Shown here one piece after another: positions 1 through 41,759 of a stretch of 64,000 nucleotides of DNA; position 1 is the first letter of the stretch; every line of letters begins with the position of its first letter. The stretch lies in the sequence record NC_047979.1; one strand, given 5' to 3'. Source of the stretch: Escherichia phage Gostya9. The notes below the pieces were generated by a model. That model did not search any database. It was not told where the DNA came from and saw only the letters and a list, made by a program, of their open reading frames with translations. A program made the position numbers and the translations under genes.

Positions 1-408
1 AATACAGTAACGTCTATTATTTTCCAGTTTAAGTCAAGGTGACTTAGTGGTTATGCCCTGCGGTATACTGGGGACTCGGTTAGGTTAGGGTCATGACTTC
101 CTACCTTTTTGCTGCTACTCAACAGGAGTTATCGCGAATTACCTGTGCTATTGTGCACCATTAGTGGCATCTCTCATGCCAGCATTTCCCACTTTGTGGA
201 TAGTTTGAAAAACTACTCCGATATGGAGGGAGAACTTCACTATCCTAGAATACCTTCTAAAGTTCTTCTTTAGCCTGGACATAGTTAAATCGTAATAAAA
301 CTATTCAGCAGACTGGTTGGTTAGCCTGGAACCAACTACCGCGTGGTTTAGGCAGTGCGCAACTAACCTCGGAAGCTTTTACGTTAAAAGCACCAGTTAT
401 CCAGTTCT

Positions 409-480
409 TACCGATCGTAGGATTCGAACCTACATCTTCCACCAGTTACGGCTTGATAATACCGTTTATACTAGATCGGC
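409..480 (-). tRNA. tRNA-like element (possibly degenerate tRNA or pseudo-tRNA); anticodon not assignable
   Basis: Minus-strand sequence GCCGATC...GTAGG-TTCGAAT-CCTAC-GATCGGT-A gives a canonical T-arm (5-bp stem, TTCGAAT loop) and a 7-bp acceptor stem with G1-U71 and discriminator A. The 40 nt between them do not fold into standard D and anticodon arms by hand (only an ACGG/CCGT 4-bp stem with a 10-nt loop). It lies directly downstream of an early-type promoter at 557-585. Confidence 0.4.
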
Positions 481-556
481 AGTGTTACTACATAAGTGAT
501 TTCCACACCCCACTATTTATAACTTAGAGAAGAATTACTCTCTAATTTATGAATAT

Positions 557-585
557 ATTATACAGAATTTATAAGCATTTAGCAA
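557..585 (-). promoter_or_regulatory. sigma70-type early promoter (TTGCTA-N17-TATAAT) directed toward the tRNA-like element
   Basis: Minus-strand reading gives TTGCTA, a 17-bp spacer, TATAAT, then the conserved box ATATTCATAAATT. Confidence 0.5.
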
Positions 586-1036
586 ATGAATTTTTAGAAA
601 ACTCGCTAGCAATCAAGGCGGCTGTTTTACCATCATAACGCCCTGGAAATTCTGCCTTAATAGTTTTCATTAAGAGAGCTTTGGTAATGCCTGGGTTTAG
701 TTTAACTAATTCTGCAAAGTATTTACGAATTTCAGTATCAGATAACTGAGGAGGCAGATACTCCTGCAACCACTTATTTAGAATGTATTCATACTGAGCG
801 GACTGCAAGCTATAACTATCAAGATCTTGACCATGAAGTTTAGCTTTCATTTGGTTAATGCTTTTTAGTTGAGCTTTGAGATAAGACACAAATTGTTCAG
901 AAGTGATGAAATCTTTATCAATACGCTGAAGATCCCCGATTATGGTCTGGTAGCTTTTAGCGACTTCTTTATCAGAACCATTAAACTTAGAATCCTGCAA
1001 AGCTCTACGCAAAACAGCTAAAATATTCTCTTCCAT
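569..1036 (-). CDS. hypothetical protein (155 aa)
   Basis: ORF with ATG start at 1036 whose ATG overlaps the TAA of the upstream small ORF (TAATG). No recognisable motif. Confidence 0.6.
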   Translation of the reverse strand: MEENILAVLRRALQDSKFNGSDKEVAKSYQTIIGDLQRIDKDFITSEQFVSYLKAQLKSINQMKAKLHGQDLDSYSLQSAQYEYILNKWLQEYLPPQLSDTEIRKYFAELVKLNPGITKALLMKTIKAEFPGRYDGKTAALIASEFSKNSFAKCL

Positions 1037-1206
1037 TATTTCATCCCCAATGCTTGGTTGAAAGATTGTTCTGTCATAACTGCTGAGACTTTGGCGAAAT
1101 CAAACTTTTTAGGGTTCGTAGTGATCTCAGCAACGTTGGAAGTTTTAACAGTTTTCGTAGTACGAATACCGCGAGTGTTAACACCAATGACGACCAAGTT
1201 TTTCAT
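1036..1206 (-). CDS. small hypothetical protein (56 aa, below the 60-aa ORF-track threshold)
   Basis: ATG at 1206-1204 preceded by GAGAGGAAG RBS and the promoter at 1238-1266. Translates MKNLVVIGVNTRGIRTTKTVKTSNVAEITTNPKKFDFAKVSAVMTEQSFNQALGMK. Its stop overlaps the next ATG. Confidence 0.45.
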   Translation of the reverse strand: MKNLVVIGVNTRGIRTTKTVKTSNVAEITTNPKKFDFAKVSAVMTEQSFNQALGMK

Positions 1207-1237: not shown

Positions 1238-1266
1238 ATTATACAGAAGTTTAAGTATTTAAGCAA
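1238..1266 (-). promoter_or_regulatory. sigma70-type early promoter (TTGCTT-N17-TATAAT)
   Basis: Minus strand TTGCTT, 17-bp spacer, TATAAT, followed by the CATAAATT box and an RBS. Confidence 0.5.
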
Positions 1267-30367: not shown

Positions 30368-33300
30368 TTGAAAATTGCAGTAGTTGATAAAGCTCTAAAC
30401 AACACTCGTTATGATAAACATTTCCAGCTATACGGCGAGGAAGTTGATGTATTCCATATGTGTAACGAGAAGTTATCCGGTCGTTTGCTCAAAAAGCATA
30501 TTACTATCGGGACCCCGGAAAACCCATTTGACCCGAATGATTATGATTTTGTTATACTGGTAGGTGCCGAACCTTTCCTGTACTTTGCGGGTAAGAAAGG
30601 TATTGGTGATTATACTGGTAAACGTGTAGAGTATAATGGATATGCTAACTGGATTGCTAGTATCAGCCCAGCCCAGTTACACTTTAAACCTGAAATGAAA
30701 CCAGTTTTTGATGCAACAGTAGAGAGTATCCACGATATTATCAATGGTCGTGAGAAGATTGCAAAAGCTGGTGATTACCGTCCTATTACTGACCCTGATG
30801 AGGCAGAAGAATATATCAAGATGGTGTATAATATGGTTATCGGACCTGTCGCATTCGACTCCGAAACCTCAGCACTATACTGTCGAGATGGTTATCTGCT
30901 TGGTGTTTCTATTTCTCACCAAGAGTATCAGGGTGTATATATCGATTCTGATTGTCTCACAGAGGTTGCAGTATATTATCTCCAGAAAATTCTGGATAGT
31001 GAAAACCACATTATTGTTTTTCACAACTTGAAGTTTGATATGCACTTTTATAAGTACCATCTGGGACTTACTTTTGATAAAGCACATAAAGAACGCAGGC
31101 TCCATGATACCATGTTGCAGCACTATGTTCTAGATGAACGTCGTGGTACTCATGGCTTGAAATCTCTAGCAATGAAGTATACCGATATGGGTGACTATGA
31201 CTTCGAACTAGATAAGTTCAAAGATGATTACTGCAAAGCACATAAAATCAAGAAAGAAGATTTCACCTATGATCTGATTCCGTTTGATATTATGTGGCCA
31301 TATGCATGTCTTACTCACGATTCCCAAGTTCGGATGGCTTCAGGGAATTGGAAGACTATTGGGGAACTTGTTCGCACCAAATCTACAGAAGCTGTAGTAT
31401 CATTCAACGAGTCAACTGGGCAATTTGAGAACAAACCGATTACTGGATGGTATAAAAATGAACATAAATCCAAGCAATGGAAGAAGTTAATAGTTAAATC
31501 TCAGCAAAGAAACTCTAAGGGTACTATTAATGGGCCAGTATTTACACCAGATCATAGGGTATTAACTCAGAATGGATACATAGAAGTCCAAGATATTATT
31601 CCAGGACAGGATAAAATCCTAACTGAAGAACTTGCTTTACCATCTGATAGTAAGCAAGTATTAATGGCATCCCTATTTGGGGATGGTGCTCTGGTATCTA
31701 GAAATAATTGGGGCGCGGGTCTACAACTGACACAGTCAGAAGCGCATAAAGAGTATCTAGATTTTAAGGCAGCCTCTCAAGTAGAAACACCAACTCTTAG
31801 TTCCTCTACAAAAGGAGATAAAAAAGCATATACGTATAGTTTCCCCTATACCTCGGAGTATTCTGACTTATTCTCTACCTTAGAGGTACGAGATAATACT
31901 ACAAAATATAAGTTAAAAATTACTAAGAAAAATCTAGAAGGGTTAGATGAAAAAGCACTAGCTATTTGGTATCAAGATGATGGTAACCTGCCACAAGGAA
32001 ACGCACGCATTTGGTCTAGAACAGTTGCTGATTGTAAAGAAGAGCAGCAAAATTTCATAGAATGGTGTAAAAATCTAGGCATTACAGCACGCTACCATAA
32101 CGATGGAGAAAATAACCAGTTCTTTGTATTAGATAATGAAGAACTATTCCCTTTGATTGCTCCATATATGCATAGCTCTATGGCTTACAAGGTGCCAGAA
32201 AGATTCAAGCACTTAGTAGGAACAGGAACTTGGGATTTTTCAACATCTAAGTACTACTATGCAGAAGTGTATGGGGTTGAGGATTGGGTAGTTCCAGCCT
32301 CTAGAAGAGGTTACTCTACCAGTTGGTGTATAGATGTAAAAGATAACCATAACTTTGTAACTAAAGTTGGTGTAGTTCACAACTGTAAAGATACAGATGC
32401 TACCATACGTTTGCACAACTTCTTCTTACCAAAAATTGAGAAGAATGAAAAACTTTGCAGTCTATATTACGATGTTCTAATGCCTGGTTGTGTATTCCTA
32501 CAGCGTGTCGAAGATCGTGGTGTACCTATCTCTATTGATCGTTTGAAAGAAGCTCAGTATCAATTGACTCATAATTTGAATAAAGCCCGTGAGAAACTGT
32601 ATACTTATCCAGAAGTTAAACAGCTAGAACAAGATCAGAATGAAGCATTTAACCCGAACTCTGTTAAGCAGCTGCGTGTTCTTCTGTTCGATTATGTTGG
32701 TTTGACTCCAACTGGTAAGTTAACGGATACTGGTGCAGATTCTACGGATGCAGAAGCTCTGAATGAACTGGCTACGCAGCATCCAATTGCTAAAACTCTA
32801 CTAGAGATTCGTAAGCTGACTAAGCTGATCTCTACTTATGTTGAGAAGATTCTTCTGAGTATTGATGCAGATGGTTGCATTCGTACTGGTTTCCATGAAC
32901 ATATGACTACTTCTGGTCGTCTGAGTTCTTCTGGTAAACTGAACCTGCAACAGCTACCTCGTGATGAATCTATCATTAAGGGTTGTGTAGTTGCACCACC
33001 TGGATACCGTGTAATCGCATGGGACTTAACAACTGCGGAAGTTTATTATGCTGCTGTTCTATCTGGTGATAGAAATATGCAACAAGTATTTATCAACATG
33101 AGAAATGAACCCGATAAATACCCTGACTTCCACTCTAACATCGCCCACATGGTATTTAAATTGCAATGTGAACCTCGTGATGTTAAAAAGTTATTCCCAG
33201 CTCTGCGTCAAGCAGCTAAGGCAATTACCTTTGGTATTTTGTACGGTTCTGGCCCGGCTAAAGTAGCACATTCTGTTAACGAAGCATTGCTAGAACAAGC

Positions 33301-41316: not shown

Positions 41317-41759
41317 TTAAAATTAAGTTAACTCATCCAGATTGTATGCCTAAGATTGGTTCCGAAGATGCCGCAGGTATGGATCTGCGAGCATTCTTTG
41401 GTACTAACCCTGCAGCGGATTTACGTGCTATTGCACCAGGCAAATCCCTAATGATTGACACCGGTGTCGCGGTAGAAATTCCGCGAGGTTGGTTCGGTTT
41501 GGTGGTTCCGCGTAGTTCTTTAGGAAAGCGCCATTTGATGATCGCAAACACCGCAGGAGTGATCGACTCAGACTATCGTGGTACTATTAAGATGAACCTT
41601 TATAACTACGGTTCTGAAATTCAAACTCTGGAGAATTTTGAAAGACTTTGCCAACTAGTGGTACTACCACATTACTCAACTCATAACTTTAAAATCGTTG
41701 ACGAACTAGGGGAGACTAATCGTGGGGAAGGCGGATTTGGAAGTTCAGGAAGTAAATAA
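41313..41759 (+). CDS. dut: dUTP pyrophosphatase
   Basis: dUTPase motifs AGMDLRA, RSSLG, GVIDSDYRG and C-terminal RGEGGFGSSG. Confidence 0.85.
   Translation: MIKIKLTHPDCMPKIGSEDAAGMDLRAFFGTNPAADLRAIAPGKSLMIDTGVAVEIPRGWFGLVVPRSSLGKRHLMIANTAGVIDSDYRGTIKMNLYNYGSEIQTLENFERLCQLVVLPHYSTHNFKIVDELGETNRGEGGFGSSGSK

What the first reader, a model, noticed from the sequence alone, without database searches (positions are those of the whole stretch)
409..585. Promoter-driven tRNA-like element with canonical acceptor and T-arm but aberrant D/anticodon arms
The minus-strand element has a textbook T-arm (GTAGG-TTCGAAT-CCTAC) and a 7-bp acceptor stem, but I could not fold the 40 internal nucleotides into D and anticodon arms. 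It may be a decoy or regulatory tRNA-like RNA, a processing signal, or a decayed member of the phage tRNA cluster that probably continues beyond the window start. A typical early promoter at 557-585 points into it.
Basis: seen in the sequence. Interest (0 to 1): 0.45.

Follow-up and report, generated by a model that had tools for sequence, protein, structure and literature searches.

The report
tRNA-shaped domain inside phage RNAX
The tRNA look-alike is real, but it is not a working tRNA gene: it is a conserved tRNA-shaped domain built into a roughly 640-base non-coding transcript ('RNAX') of T5-type phages, which a few database records already list and whose function is still unknown.

Summary
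On the minus strand, 480..409 has a 7-bp acceptor stem, a GTAGG-TTCGAAT-CCTAC T arm, and a TTGCTA-17-TATAAT promoter at 585..557. ARAGORN and Rfam both call it a tRNA, but only by skipping or forcing the anticodon arm.

The window is a T5-like phage, 98% identical to DT571/2 here. GenBank already annotates this element as a tRNA pseudogene (T5) or as part of 'rnaX, stable RNA with unknown functions'.

Comparison across Tequinta-, Epseptima- and Sugarlandviruses shows:
- Acceptor, D and T stems covary, and the nucleotides that form the tRNA elbow are invariant.
- The anticodon arm is a slipped 3-bp stem with a 6-nt loop. Elsewhere it is replaced by unrelated hairpins.
- There is no CCA, although all 22 other T5 tRNAs encode one.
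- The ends are clamped by a covarying leader-trailer helix of about 12 bp.
- In 32 phages another insert replaces the whole cloverleaf.

The rest of RNAX is also structured and matches no Rfam family. The locus is missing from the T5 st0 deletion mutant.

Best reading: a non-decoding tRNA mimic embedded in a large phage RNA, probably recognised by RNase P and other tRNA enzymes. Its existence is already known. The architecture and function are not described in the literature I could search.

The parts
557..585 (-). Sigma-70-type T5 early promoter: -35 TTGCTA at 585-580, 17-nt spacer, -10 TATAAT at 562-557. It overlaps the stop codon of the upstream YqeY-like ORF. The transcription start is inferred at about 551-543.
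   Evidence: 10 of 12 consensus positions. The homologous site is annotated 'promoter P16-17' in AJ604531, with the rnaX start 13-14 nt after the -10.
1..550 (-). The part of the RNAX transcript that lies in the window. RNAX is a misc_RNA, 'stable RNA with unknown functions', 636 nt long in DT571/2. The last ~95 nt and the following tRNA-Arg(UCU) lie beyond window position 1.
   Evidence: Window 1-600 is 98% identical over its full length to KM979355 rnaX. AJ604531 carries the same annotation.
501..515 (-). Conserved leader block UAGUGGGGUGUGGAA. GUGGGGUG is invariant across genera.
   Evidence: Alignment A1 invariant columns.
487..500 (-). 5' strand of the closing (leader-trailer) helix: AUCA-C-UUAU-G-UAGU.
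   Evidence: The 12 pairs are 100% paired in 22 distinct sequences. Seven pairs show changes on both sides, and RNAalifold predicts the helix independently.
481..486 (-). Invariant 5' linker AACACU, with U at -1 before G1.
   Evidence: A1 invariant columns.
409..480 (-). tRNA-like cloverleaf of 72 nt. Acceptor stem 480-474 with 416-410. D arm 471-456. Slipped anticodon-like arm 453-440 with 6-nt loop GUAACU at 449-444. T arm 433-417. Discriminator A409. No CCA.
406..409 (-). Invariant 3' linker AAGA. A409 doubles as the discriminator.
   Evidence: A1 invariant columns.
392..405 (-). 3' strand of the closing helix: ACUG-G-AUAA-C-UGGU.
375..391 (-). Trailer hairpin GCUUUU-AACGU-AAAAGC.
   Evidence: Two pairs show double changes (C-G/G-C and U-A/C-G/A-U).
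196..374 (-). RNAX central domain, made of several hairpins. Examples: GUUGGUU-CCAGGCU-AACCAAC, CUAAAG-AAGAA-CUUUAG, UAGAA-GGUA-UUCUA, GAUAG...CUAUC.
   Evidence: The consensus fold has 58 pairs, 7 of them with compensatory changes in only 6 sequences.
20..195 (-). RNAX 3' domain with invariant motifs: AAGUGGGAAA, GGAGUCAUGACC (palindrome GUCAUGAC at 97-90), AUAACCAC, and AGUCA-CCU-UGACU followed by UAAACUGGAA. It also has a strongly covarying hairpin.
569..1036 (-). Upstream neighbour and possible partner, not part of the RNA: a 155-aa YqeY-like protein. The similarity to the tRNA-binding GatB tail family is weak.
   Evidence: Pfam YqeY 19.7 bits, below the cut-off of 27. PDB 1ng6, E = 0.088. 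PHROG 1460 'tRNA amidotransferase', 1e-44. The gene is adjacent to RNAX in Tequinta- and Epseptimaviruses but not in Sugarlandviruses.

Best explanation
The element is the tRNA-shaped domain of RNAX. RNAX is a promoter-driven, non-coding, highly structured RNA of about 640 nt. It heads the tRNA island of T5-like phages and ends at tRNA-Arg(UCU).

The domain keeps everything a tRNA needs to fold into an L shape:
- a 7-bp acceptor stem stacked on a 5-bp T stem;
- the T loop UUCGAAU;
- the D loop GG;
- U8, A14 and A21.

It has lost everything needed to decode or be charged:
- the anticodon stem is slipped to 3 bp with a 6-nt loop;
- there is no CCA;
- its 5' and 3' ends are joined by invariant linkers (AACACU and AAGA) to a covarying leader-trailer helix of about 12 bp.

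It therefore acts as a tRNA mimic, a recognition handle, inside a larger RNA, not as a translation adaptor.

Most likely mechanism (inferred, not shown; about 0.4 given the identity above): host enzymes that read the acceptor/T-stem stack and the elbow act on it. These would be RNase P cutting between U481 and G480, and the T- and D-loop modification enzymes. That would give RNAX tRNA-type processing and stability. The closing helix would keep the cut pieces together, as happens in M. smegmatis YrlA.

The domain is a peripheral, exchangeable module. Its anticodon arm is replaced freely, and in some phages another insert replaces the whole cloverleaf.
For: Identity and context:
- 98-100% identity to DT571/2 rnaX, and the same annotation in AJ604531.
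- T5 AY587007 annotates it as a tRNA pseudogene.

Structure under selection (A1, 22 distinct sequences from three genera):
- 90.6% of cells are paired, against 33-45% when the partners are slid.
- 15 pairs show double changes, against 1-3 in the slid controls.
- 0 of 500 shuffles reach the observed value on four of the five measures (the count of further pair types is not above shuffled, 325/500); the closing helix and the T stem are 100% paired.
- RNAalifold independently finds and extends the closing helix.
- G18, G19, A21, G53, U54, U55, C56, A58 and C61 are invariant. U8 and A14 are at least 90% conserved.

Not a decoder:
- Rfam skips the anticodon arm.
- ARAGORN calls ACT here, RefSeq's tRNA annotation calls TAA, and Epseptimavirus homologs are called UCA.
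- The arm varies between lineages: GCC-GUAACU-GGU, GGC-GUAACU-GCC, GGGC-UUCACU-GCCU, a 6-bp stem with a 5-nt loop, or a long arm with a covarying inner hairpin.
- All 22 other ARAGORN-predicted tRNAs of the T5 cluster end in an encoded CCA. This element ends ...GGTAA.

Module character:
- A 47-nt non-tRNA insert replaces it in 32 phage records, including EPS7, while the closing helix is kept.
- The Klebsiella-type long-arm module occurs in a Tequintavirus backbone (L074).

The rest of RNAX is structured:
- Covarying hairpins in the central and 3' domains.
- Frame-breaking 1-nt indels in the only ORFs.

Precedent:
- YrlA with a 7-bp acceptor stem is cleaved by RNase P and receives CCA. YrlA is modified by TruB and DusA (PMC4201824).
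Against: - No expression, end-mapping or modification data were available to me. 'Stable RNA' rests only on a GenBank note.
- Sequence diversity is low (effective sequence number 1.21 in model R1), so relatedness inflates the shuffle statistics. The slid-partner control is the fairer one.
- Some natural variants carry damaged stems. Most sequences have U5.U68. L078 has a G.A pair in the T stem. L070 has GTAGG/CCCAC. L080 lacks the D arm.
- The domain is absent from 32 phages, and the whole locus is absent from the viable T5 st0 mutant. Any function is therefore conditional.
- A leader-trailer helix next to the acceptor stem could hinder RNase P rather than help it.
- The single-sequence minimum-free-energy fold of the window copy prefers an alternative pairing in the D/anticodon region.
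Confidence: 0.72

Rival explanations
1. It is a functionless relic: a tRNA gene of the cluster that is decaying. It looks conserved only because T5-like phages are closely related.
For: - Annotated as a tRNA pseudogene or 'tRNA-OTHER' in T5 and RefSeq records.
- Broken pairs in several natural variants, and a D-arm deletion in L080.
- Replaced in 32 phages.
- The region is dispensable in T5 st0.
- ARAGORN calls it in only some relatives.
Against: - Compensatory changes occur in all four stems and in the closing helix across Tequinta-, Epseptima- and Sugarlandviruses.
- The tertiary-contact nucleotides are invariant.
- The anticodon arm is not randomised. It is rebuilt as different well-paired hairpins, and one of them has its own covariation: GGGGA/UCCCC against GGAGAU/AUCUCC.
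- The flanking linkers are invariant.
Confidence: 0.12
2. It is an anti-defence decoy or sponge. The tRNA-shaped domain soaks up a host tRNA-targeting nuclease or another tRNA-binding factor during infection, and the variable arm tracks the host's defences.
For: - T5 tRNAs are known counter-measures to PARIS. The BF23 paper also reports that T5 tRNA-Tyr rescues retron Eco7 toxicity. tRNA-cleaving defences act on T5.
- The arm that such nucleases usually cut is the hypervariable part.
- The locus is dispensable in the laboratory.
Against: - There is no direct evidence.
- Most known anticodon nucleases read a canonical 7-nt loop, which this RNA lacks.
- A single-copy embedded domain is a weak sponge unless it is very abundant.
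- The T5 deletion that makes the phage PARIS-sensitive (30661-38625) does not appear to include this locus, which lies at about 41.35-41.42 kb in AY587007. This assumes the two sources use comparable coordinates.
Confidence: 0.08
3. It is a genuine but unusual decoding tRNA. Candidates are Ser-ACU or Leu-UAA in Tequintaviruses, or a UGA-reading suppressor or Sec tRNA in Epseptimaviruses.
For: - ARAGORN calls tRNA-Ser(ACT).
- Rfam scores it above the gathering threshold.
- Some records annotate it as tRNA-Ser or tRNA-Sec.
- The Epseptimavirus version can be drawn with a 7-nt loop, CUUCACU.
Against: - There is no conserved anticodon.
- The covariation-supported register gives a 6-nt loop.
- Some lineages have a tetra- or pentaloop hairpin or a 30-nt arm instead.
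- There is no CCA, unlike all 22 other T5 tRNAs.
- The ends are locked in a helix.
- tRNA-Sec hallmarks are absent: no long variable arm and no 6-bp D stem.
Confidence: 0.03
4. The stretch is protein-coding. The candidates are the 45-aa GTG ORF at 442..305 or the 44-aa ORF at 282..148, as several automatic annotations imply.
For: These ORFs exist. Some records annotate 'hypothetical protein' or 'recombination-related exonuclease' over the region.
Against: - Relatives have 1-nt indels inside both ORF ranges: A1 column 141 and A3 column 154.
- The substitution pattern preserves RNA pairs, not codons.
- Manually curated records call the region RNA.
Confidence: 0.01

Closest known systems
RNAX (misc_RNA rnaX) and the tRNA pseudogene annotated in T5-like phage GenBank records (AJ604531, KM979355, AY587007)
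   Same: It is the same locus and nearly the same sequence. The same promoter lies upstream and tRNA-Arg(UCU) lies downstream.
   Different: Those records give only 'stable RNA with unknown functions' or 'pseudo'. The embedded cloverleaf, closing helix, module swapping and covariation described here are not in those annotations, nor in any paper I could find.
Bacterial Y RNA YrlA, a tRNA-mimicking domain on a stem (PMC4201824)
   Same: - A T arm, D arm and acceptor-like stem mimic a tRNA and sit on a helix made from the flanking strands.
- The anticodon region is reduced. Yrn1 has a 6-nt 'anticodon loop'.
- YrlA-like RNAs are also reported in phage genomes.
- The version with a 7-bp acceptor stem is cut by RNase P and receives CCA.
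   Different: - No Rfam family other than tRNA matches RNAX.
- I did not look for a Ro60/Rsr (TROVE) gene, and none is among the genes annotated next to RNAX in the relatives examined.
- RNAX is 4-5 times longer.
- The Ro-binding helix motif was not identified.
GOLLD and ROOL, large ornate phage and prophage RNAs
   Same: They are large structured non-coding RNAs encoded by phages, often near tRNA islands. tRNAs are sometimes embedded in the GOLLD linker. Their function is unknown (PMC12286853).
   Different: There is no match to either covariance model, even at E <= 10. The sequence and fold appear unrelated. Oligomerisation was not tested. The embedded element here is a non-decoding mimic, not a real tRNA.
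Canonical elongator tRNA (Rfam RF00005)
   Same: Acceptor stem, D arm, T arm, overall length (72 nt) and tertiary-contact nucleotides. It scores above the Rfam gathering threshold.
   Different: The anticodon stem-loop is slipped and variable. There is no CCA. The ends are closed by a helix.
tmRNA tRNA-like domain
   Same: A tRNA-like acceptor and T-arm module that forms part of a larger RNA.
   Different: - In tmRNA the tRNA-like domain is formed by the RNA's two ends and is alanine-charged through G3:U70 (from general knowledge).
- Here the cloverleaf is contiguous, pair 3:70 is C-G, and there is no CCA.
- ARAGORN finds no tmRNA.
Phage T4 stable RNAs C and D (species 1 and 2) in the T4 tRNA cluster
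   Same: They are stable RNAs of unknown function co-transcribed with phage tRNAs and matured by tRNA-processing enzymes. This is from my own knowledge and was not checked here.
   Different: They are much smaller (about 120-140 nt). No sequence comparison was made.

Membership tests
Functional elongator tRNA | 7-bp acceptor stem plus a discriminator base | tested here: met
   480-474 pairs with 416-410, with G1.U72 and discriminator A409. Pair 5:68 is A-U, U.U or U-A across relatives, and pair 6:67 is U-A or C-G.
Functional elongator tRNA | 5-bp T stem with a UUCRANY loop, and a D arm with A14, G18G19 and A21 (the elbow) | tested here: met
   The T stem is 100% paired with two covarying pairs. 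The elbow nucleotides are invariant in 22 sequences.
Functional elongator tRNA | 5-bp anticodon stem, 7-nt loop with U33 and a purine at 37, and an anticodon conserved among orthologs | tested here: not met
   The stem has 3 bp and the loop 6 nt (GUAACU). Rfam puts a local end over the arm. Different tools and relatives give different 'anticodons' and arm lengths.
Functional elongator tRNA | A free 3' end with CCA, which is encoded in all other T5 tRNA genes | tested here: not met
   22 of 22 other T5 tRNAs end in CCA. This element ends GGTAA and continues into the closing helix.
RNAX of T5-like phages (GenBank misc_RNA rnaX) | Lies between promoter P16-17 (after the YqeY-like ORF) and tRNA-Arg(UCU), with sequence identity to annotated rnaX | tested here: met
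   98% identity over window 1-600 to KM979355 rnaX. The same annotation is in AJ604531.
RNAX of T5-like phages (GenBank misc_RNA rnaX) | Accumulates as a stable RNA in infected cells | not testable with these tools
   The only evidence is the depositor's note. No paper was found.
tRNA-Sec (as annotated for Epseptimavirus homologs) | 8+5 or 9+4 acceptor/T helices, a 6-bp D stem, a long variable arm and a UCA anticodon | tested here: not met
   The variable region is 4-5 nt and the D stem is 4 bp. UCA appears only in one lineage and only in one of two possible registers.
GOLLD / ROOL | Match to the family covariance model | tested here: not met
   No hit at E <= 10 on full RNAX from L031 or L035, nor at E <= 1 on five loci.
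GOLLD / ROOL | Large, phage-encoded, next to a tRNA island, and may embed tRNAs | tested here: met
GOLLD / ROOL | Homo-oligomeric RNA cage | not testable with these tools
   The only relevant observation is an invariant palindrome, GUCAUGAC, at 97-90.
YrlA-type bacterial Y RNA | A tRNA-like domain (T arm, D arm, acceptor-like stem) carried on a helix formed by the flanking strands | tested here: met
   compared with PMC4201824.
YrlA-type bacterial Y RNA | Encoded next to a Ro60/Rsr (TROVE) gene and carrying the Ro-binding helix motif | not tested
   The neighbouring genes are YqeY-like, DUF7616 and SleB-type hydrolase upstream, and tRNA-Arg plus a membrane protein downstream. The rest of the window was not scanned for a TROVE domain.
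tmRNA | A tRNA-like domain made from the 5' and 3' ends, a G3:U70 alanine identity pair, and a tag reading frame | tested here: not met
   ARAGORN's tmRNA search was negative. Pair 3:70 is C-G.

The most novel reading that the evidence does not exclude
RNAX is an undescribed class of large, modular, structured phage RNA of about 0.6-1.5 kb, found in Tequinta-, Epseptima- and Sugarlandviruses. It would be functionally analogous to GOLLD and ROOL. The tRNA-shaped domain would be its exchangeable 'cargo' or docking module. It could be displayed to host tRNA enzymes, to the ribosome, or to the adjacent YqeY-like protein. The invariant GUCAUGAC palindrome could help RNAX self-associate. If so, phage T5 would give a genetically tractable E. 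coli model for this kind of RNA.
Probability: 0.2. Interest if true: 0.75.

Novelty: already known. Interest (0 to 1): 0.4.

Why it matters
The element itself is not new. It is in GenBank as a T5 tRNA pseudogene and as part of 'RNAX'.

What this analysis adds:
- The 'pseudogene' is under structural selection.
- It is built into a much larger structured RNA through a covarying closing helix.
- It behaves as a swappable tRNA-mimic module.

Practical consequences:
- Dozens of RefSeq and GenBank records mislabel it as tRNA-Ser, tRNA-Sec or a hypothetical protein.
- Counts of T5-type 'tRNAs', and claims of a phage selenocysteine tRNA, should exclude it.

Scientific interest:
- T5 tRNAs are currently studied as counter-measures to tRNA-cleaving defences.
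- Large phage RNAs near tRNA islands (GOLLD, ROOL) have just been shown to form RNA cages of unknown purpose.
- A conserved large RNA with an embedded tRNA mimic, absent from Rfam, in a classic E. coli phage would be an accessible system for asking what such RNAs do.

Tried and rejected
- **Rfam, rest of RNAX.** Scans at gathering threshold and at E <= 10 over the window and over full RNAX from three lineages found only the tRNA piece. There was no GOLLD, ROOL, tmRNA, RNase P, intron or Y-RNA hit.
- **Covariance model R1 of the 5' domain.** It found one copy in the window and none in the loci fetched from Priunavirus PR1, Myunavirus My1 or Serratia phage Kamaji. Those loci were only promoter matches, so absence from those genera is not established.
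- **Leader-pattern scans.** Bacterial genome representatives gave 0 hits. Metagenomes gave 11 contigs, all T5-like. IMG/VR gave 26 stretches containing a shorter leader pattern, all T5-like.
- **Literature.** Searches for RNAX, T5 stable RNA and T5 tRNA pseudogene found nothing describing it.
- **Paralog among T5 tRNAs.** The best identity was 0.70, against a background mean of 0.63 and a maximum of 0.76, so no source tRNA could be named.
- **Leader hairpin.** I first read a small hairpin (GUG...CAC) in the leader. I dropped it in favour of the covarying long-range leader-trailer helix.
- **Single-sequence folding.** It is ambiguous in the D/anticodon region and is not significant for the 155-nt domain (z = -0.8). 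The structural case therefore rests on comparison, not thermodynamics.
- **YqeY-like neighbour as a tRNA-binding partner.** The similarity is weak and the gene is not adjacent in Sugarlandviruses. I kept it only as a lead.
Full report
**1. Observation**

All coordinates below are on the minus strand.
- Window 480..409 reads GCCGATC-TA-GTAT-AAACGGTA-TTAT-C-AAGCCGTAACTGGTGGA-AGAT-GTAGG-TTCGAAT-CCTAC-GATCGGT-A.
- The acceptor stem has 7 bp, with G1.U72.
- A TTGCTA-17-TATAAT promoter lies at 585..557.
- ARAGORN reports tRNA-Ser(ACT) at 481..408.
- Rfam's tRNA model scores 39 bits against a gathering score of 29. It does so only by placing a local end over the 18 nt of the anticodon arm.
It has three pairs plus U13.U22, with A14, G18G19 and A21 in place.
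- The anticodon arm is the aberrant part.

**2. What the locus is**

- The window is a T5-like phage (Tequintavirus). Positions 1-600 are 98% identical, end to end, to Escherichia phage DT571/2.
- In that record, and in the 'phage 5' tRNA-region record AJ604531, the whole stretch from this promoter (named P16-17 in AJ604531) to the next tRNA-Arg(UCU) is annotated as misc_RNA rnaX, 'stable RNA with unknown functions'. It is 636 nt in one record and 785 nt in the other.
- The wild-type T5 record AY587007 annotates a tRNA pseudogene here. The tRNA coordinates of that record are uniformly displaced by 68 nt from the sequence.
- Other records call the element tRNA-Ser, tRNA-OTHER/Pseudo-TAA or tRNA-Sec. 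Some lay hypothetical proteins over it.
- The window starts inside RNAX. About 95 nt of RNAX, tRNA-Arg and the rest of the tRNA island lie beyond position 1.
- The heat-stable T5 st0 deletion mutant lacks the whole locus, so it is dispensable in the laboratory.

**3. Comparative anatomy of the 5' domain**

I collected relatives from IMG/VR, INPHARED and metagenomes. Twenty-two distinct sequences from Tequinta-, Epseptima- and Sugarlandviruses were aligned as A1.

I proposed a structure and tested it with pair counting:
- 90.6% of cells are paired, against 33-45% when the 3' partners are slid by 1-3 columns.
- 15 pairs show changes on both sides, against 1-3 in the slid controls.
- No shuffle out of 500 reached the observed value on four of the five measures. 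The fifth measure, further standard pair types, was not above shuffled (325 of 500).

Stem by stem:
- The T stem is always paired (U-A/C-G and A-U/G-C).
- The D stem covaries (U-A/G-C and A-U/U-A).
- Acceptor pair 5:68 runs A-U, U.U, U-A. Pair 6:67 is U-A or C-G.
- G18, G19, A21, G53, U54, U55, C56, A58 and C61 are invariant. U8 and A14 are nearly so. The elbow-forming core of a tRNA is therefore preserved.

The anticodon arm behaves differently:
- Covariation supports a register slipped by one base: G29-U40, C30-G39, C31-G38.
- The loop has six nucleotides, GUAACU. Pair C-G switches to G-C in Klebsiella phages.

**4. The element is not free-standing**

- The leader AUCACUUAUGUAGU (500-487) pairs with the trailer ACUGGAUAACUGGU (405-392).
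- I saw this by eye. It is 100% paired, and RNAalifold independently predicts and extends it.
- Seven of its 12 pairs show double changes.
- Invariant linkers join this helix to the acceptor stem: AACACU on the 5' side and AAGA on the 3' side.
- No CCA follows the discriminator. All 22 other ARAGORN-predicted tRNAs of the T5 island end in an encoded CCA.

**5. The cloverleaf is an exchangeable module**

| Lineage | Anticodon-arm form | Evidence |
|---|---|---|
| Tequintavirus | GCC-GUAACU-GGU; 328 phage records match a 55-nt probe | |
| Some Klebsiella phages | GGC-GUAACU-GCC | |
| Epseptimavirus | GGGC-UUCACU-GCCU; source of the 'tRNA-Sec(UCA)' calls; about 76-91 records | |
| Citrobacter phage YZU-L1 | AGG-AGUAAAUG-CCU | |
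| Klebsiella phage AmPh_EK80 | 6-bp stem with a 5-nt loop | |
| Sugarlandvirus | 5-bp stem carrying a further hairpin; 41 records | |

- The inner hairpin of the Sugarlandvirus form covaries (GGGGA/UCCCC against GGAGAU/AUCUCC) in a metagenomic Tequintavirus-backbone contig.
- In 32 records, including EPS7, the entire cloverleaf is replaced by an unrelated insert of about 47 nt. That insert is closed by CCAGA/UCUGG, while the linkers and closing helix are kept.
- A few natural variants carry damaged stems or lack the D arm.

**6. The rest of RNAX**

- The central domain (374-196) and the 3' domain (195-20) contain many hairpins with compensatory changes.
  - UAGAA/UUCUA alternates with UAGGC/GCCUA and UAGUC/GACUA.
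  - GUUGGUU/AACCAAC alternates with GUUGAUU/AAUCAAC.
  - A 5-bp hairpin in the 3' domain has three to six double changes per pair.
- Invariant motifs include AAGUGGGAAA, GGAGUCAUGACC, AUAACCAC and UAAACUGGAA.
- The only ORFs are broken by 1-nt indels in relatives.
- RNAX is mosaic. Blocks are exchanged between genera, and length ranges from about 0.6 to 1.5 kb.
- No Rfam family other than tRNA matches it, even at E <= 10.
- The conserved leader pattern occurs in no representative bacterial genome.

**7. How it most likely works**

Shown:
- The element is a conserved, L-shape-competent tRNA mimic.
- It lacks decoding and charging features.
- It is embedded through a covarying helix in a large structured phage RNA that lies behind a consensus-type promoter annotated as such in a relative (transcription itself was not tested).

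Inferred:
- It serves as a recognition handle for factors that read the acceptor/T-stem stack and the elbow.
- The best precedent is YrlA. The M. smegmatis form has a 7-bp acceptor stem, is cut by RNase P and receives CCA. Salmonella YrlA is modified by TruB and DusA (PMC4201824).
- I therefore favour RNase P cleavage at U481/G480 together with T- and D-loop modification. The closing helix would hold the pieces together.
- I put this at about 0.4, given the identity of the element.

Alternatives within the same frame:
- a docking site for a protein. The upstream YqeY-like gene is a weak lead;
- a displayed module of a GOLLD/ROOL-like assembly.

Rivals, with my confidence in each:
- functionless relic, 0.12;
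- anti-defence decoy, 0.08;
- real tRNA, 0.03;
- protein-coding, 0.01.

**8. Novelty and verdict**

- The element and RNAX are already in public annotation, so the finding is 'already known' as an object.
- Its architecture and function are not described in anything I could search.
- Interest is moderate, at 0.4.
- It corrects widespread mis-annotation as tRNA-Ser, tRNA-Sec or hypothetical proteins.
- It points to an uncharacterised large structured RNA in a model phage. This comes at a time when phage tRNA islands and large phage RNAs are both under active study.

Noticed in passing
L031:72-225 (AJ604531); absent from the window between about 545 and 520: Most Tequintaviruses carry an extra GC-rich segment of about 150 nt in the RNAX leader, between the promoter and the conserved leader block. 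The window, T5 and DT571/2 lack it. It looks like another optional RNAX module.
   Followed up: partly
L028:3480-3590 (T5); corresponds to window about 45-25: T5 has an insert of about 85 nt in the RNAX 3' region. It is flanked by the direct repeat GTCACCTTGAC(T/A)TAAACTGGAA and contains an inverted repeat (TACTTACTT...AAGTAAGTA). This resembles a small mobile insertion with a target duplication.
   Followed up: no
AY587007.1 tRNA features (L084, L069): All tRNA feature coordinates in this T5 record are displaced by 68 nt from the sequence, so the features overlap CDS ends. ARAGORN positions and a BLAST of the element show the true location of the 'pseudo' tRNA to be about 41351-41422.
   Followed up: yes
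L032:2064-2137, L033:1795-1868, and about 76-91 Epseptimavirus records: The 'tRNA-Sec' or 'tRNA-SeC(tca)' annotated in many Salmonella and E. coli Epseptimavirus genomes is the UCA-type variant of this RNAX domain. It is not a selenocysteine tRNA.
   Followed up: yes
window 97..90 (minus strand): An invariant self-complementary octamer, GUCAUGAC, sits within the invariant GGAGUCAUGACC of the RNAX 3' domain. It could pair within the molecule or mediate RNA-RNA dimerisation.
   Followed up: no
L068 (AY692264, T5 st0) 31811-33086: The T5 tRNA island holds further annotated small RNAs with no function given in the record: rna2H (172 nt), RNAIV (103 nt) and rna2 (125 nt).
   Followed up: no
window 1266..1238 (minus strand): A second T5-type promoter, TTGCTT-17-TATAAT, lies upstream of the DUF7616 and YqeY-like ORFs. 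The scanner missed it because its -35 matches only 3 of 6 positions. Transcripts from it could read through into RNAX, since no terminator was found in 1-1500.
   Followed up: partly
L070/L075, L078, L080 (metagenome contigs): Some natural variants have a disrupted cloverleaf. One has a hybrid T stem, GTAGG/CCCAC, which looks like a recombination joint inside the T loop. One has a G.A mismatch in the T stem. One has a 10-nt deletion that removes the D arm.
   Followed up: partly
window 1039-1206 (minus strand): The 56-aa ORF between the SleB-type hydrolase gene and the YqeY-like gene is a full-length member of Pfam DUF7616 (109 bits).
   Followed up: no
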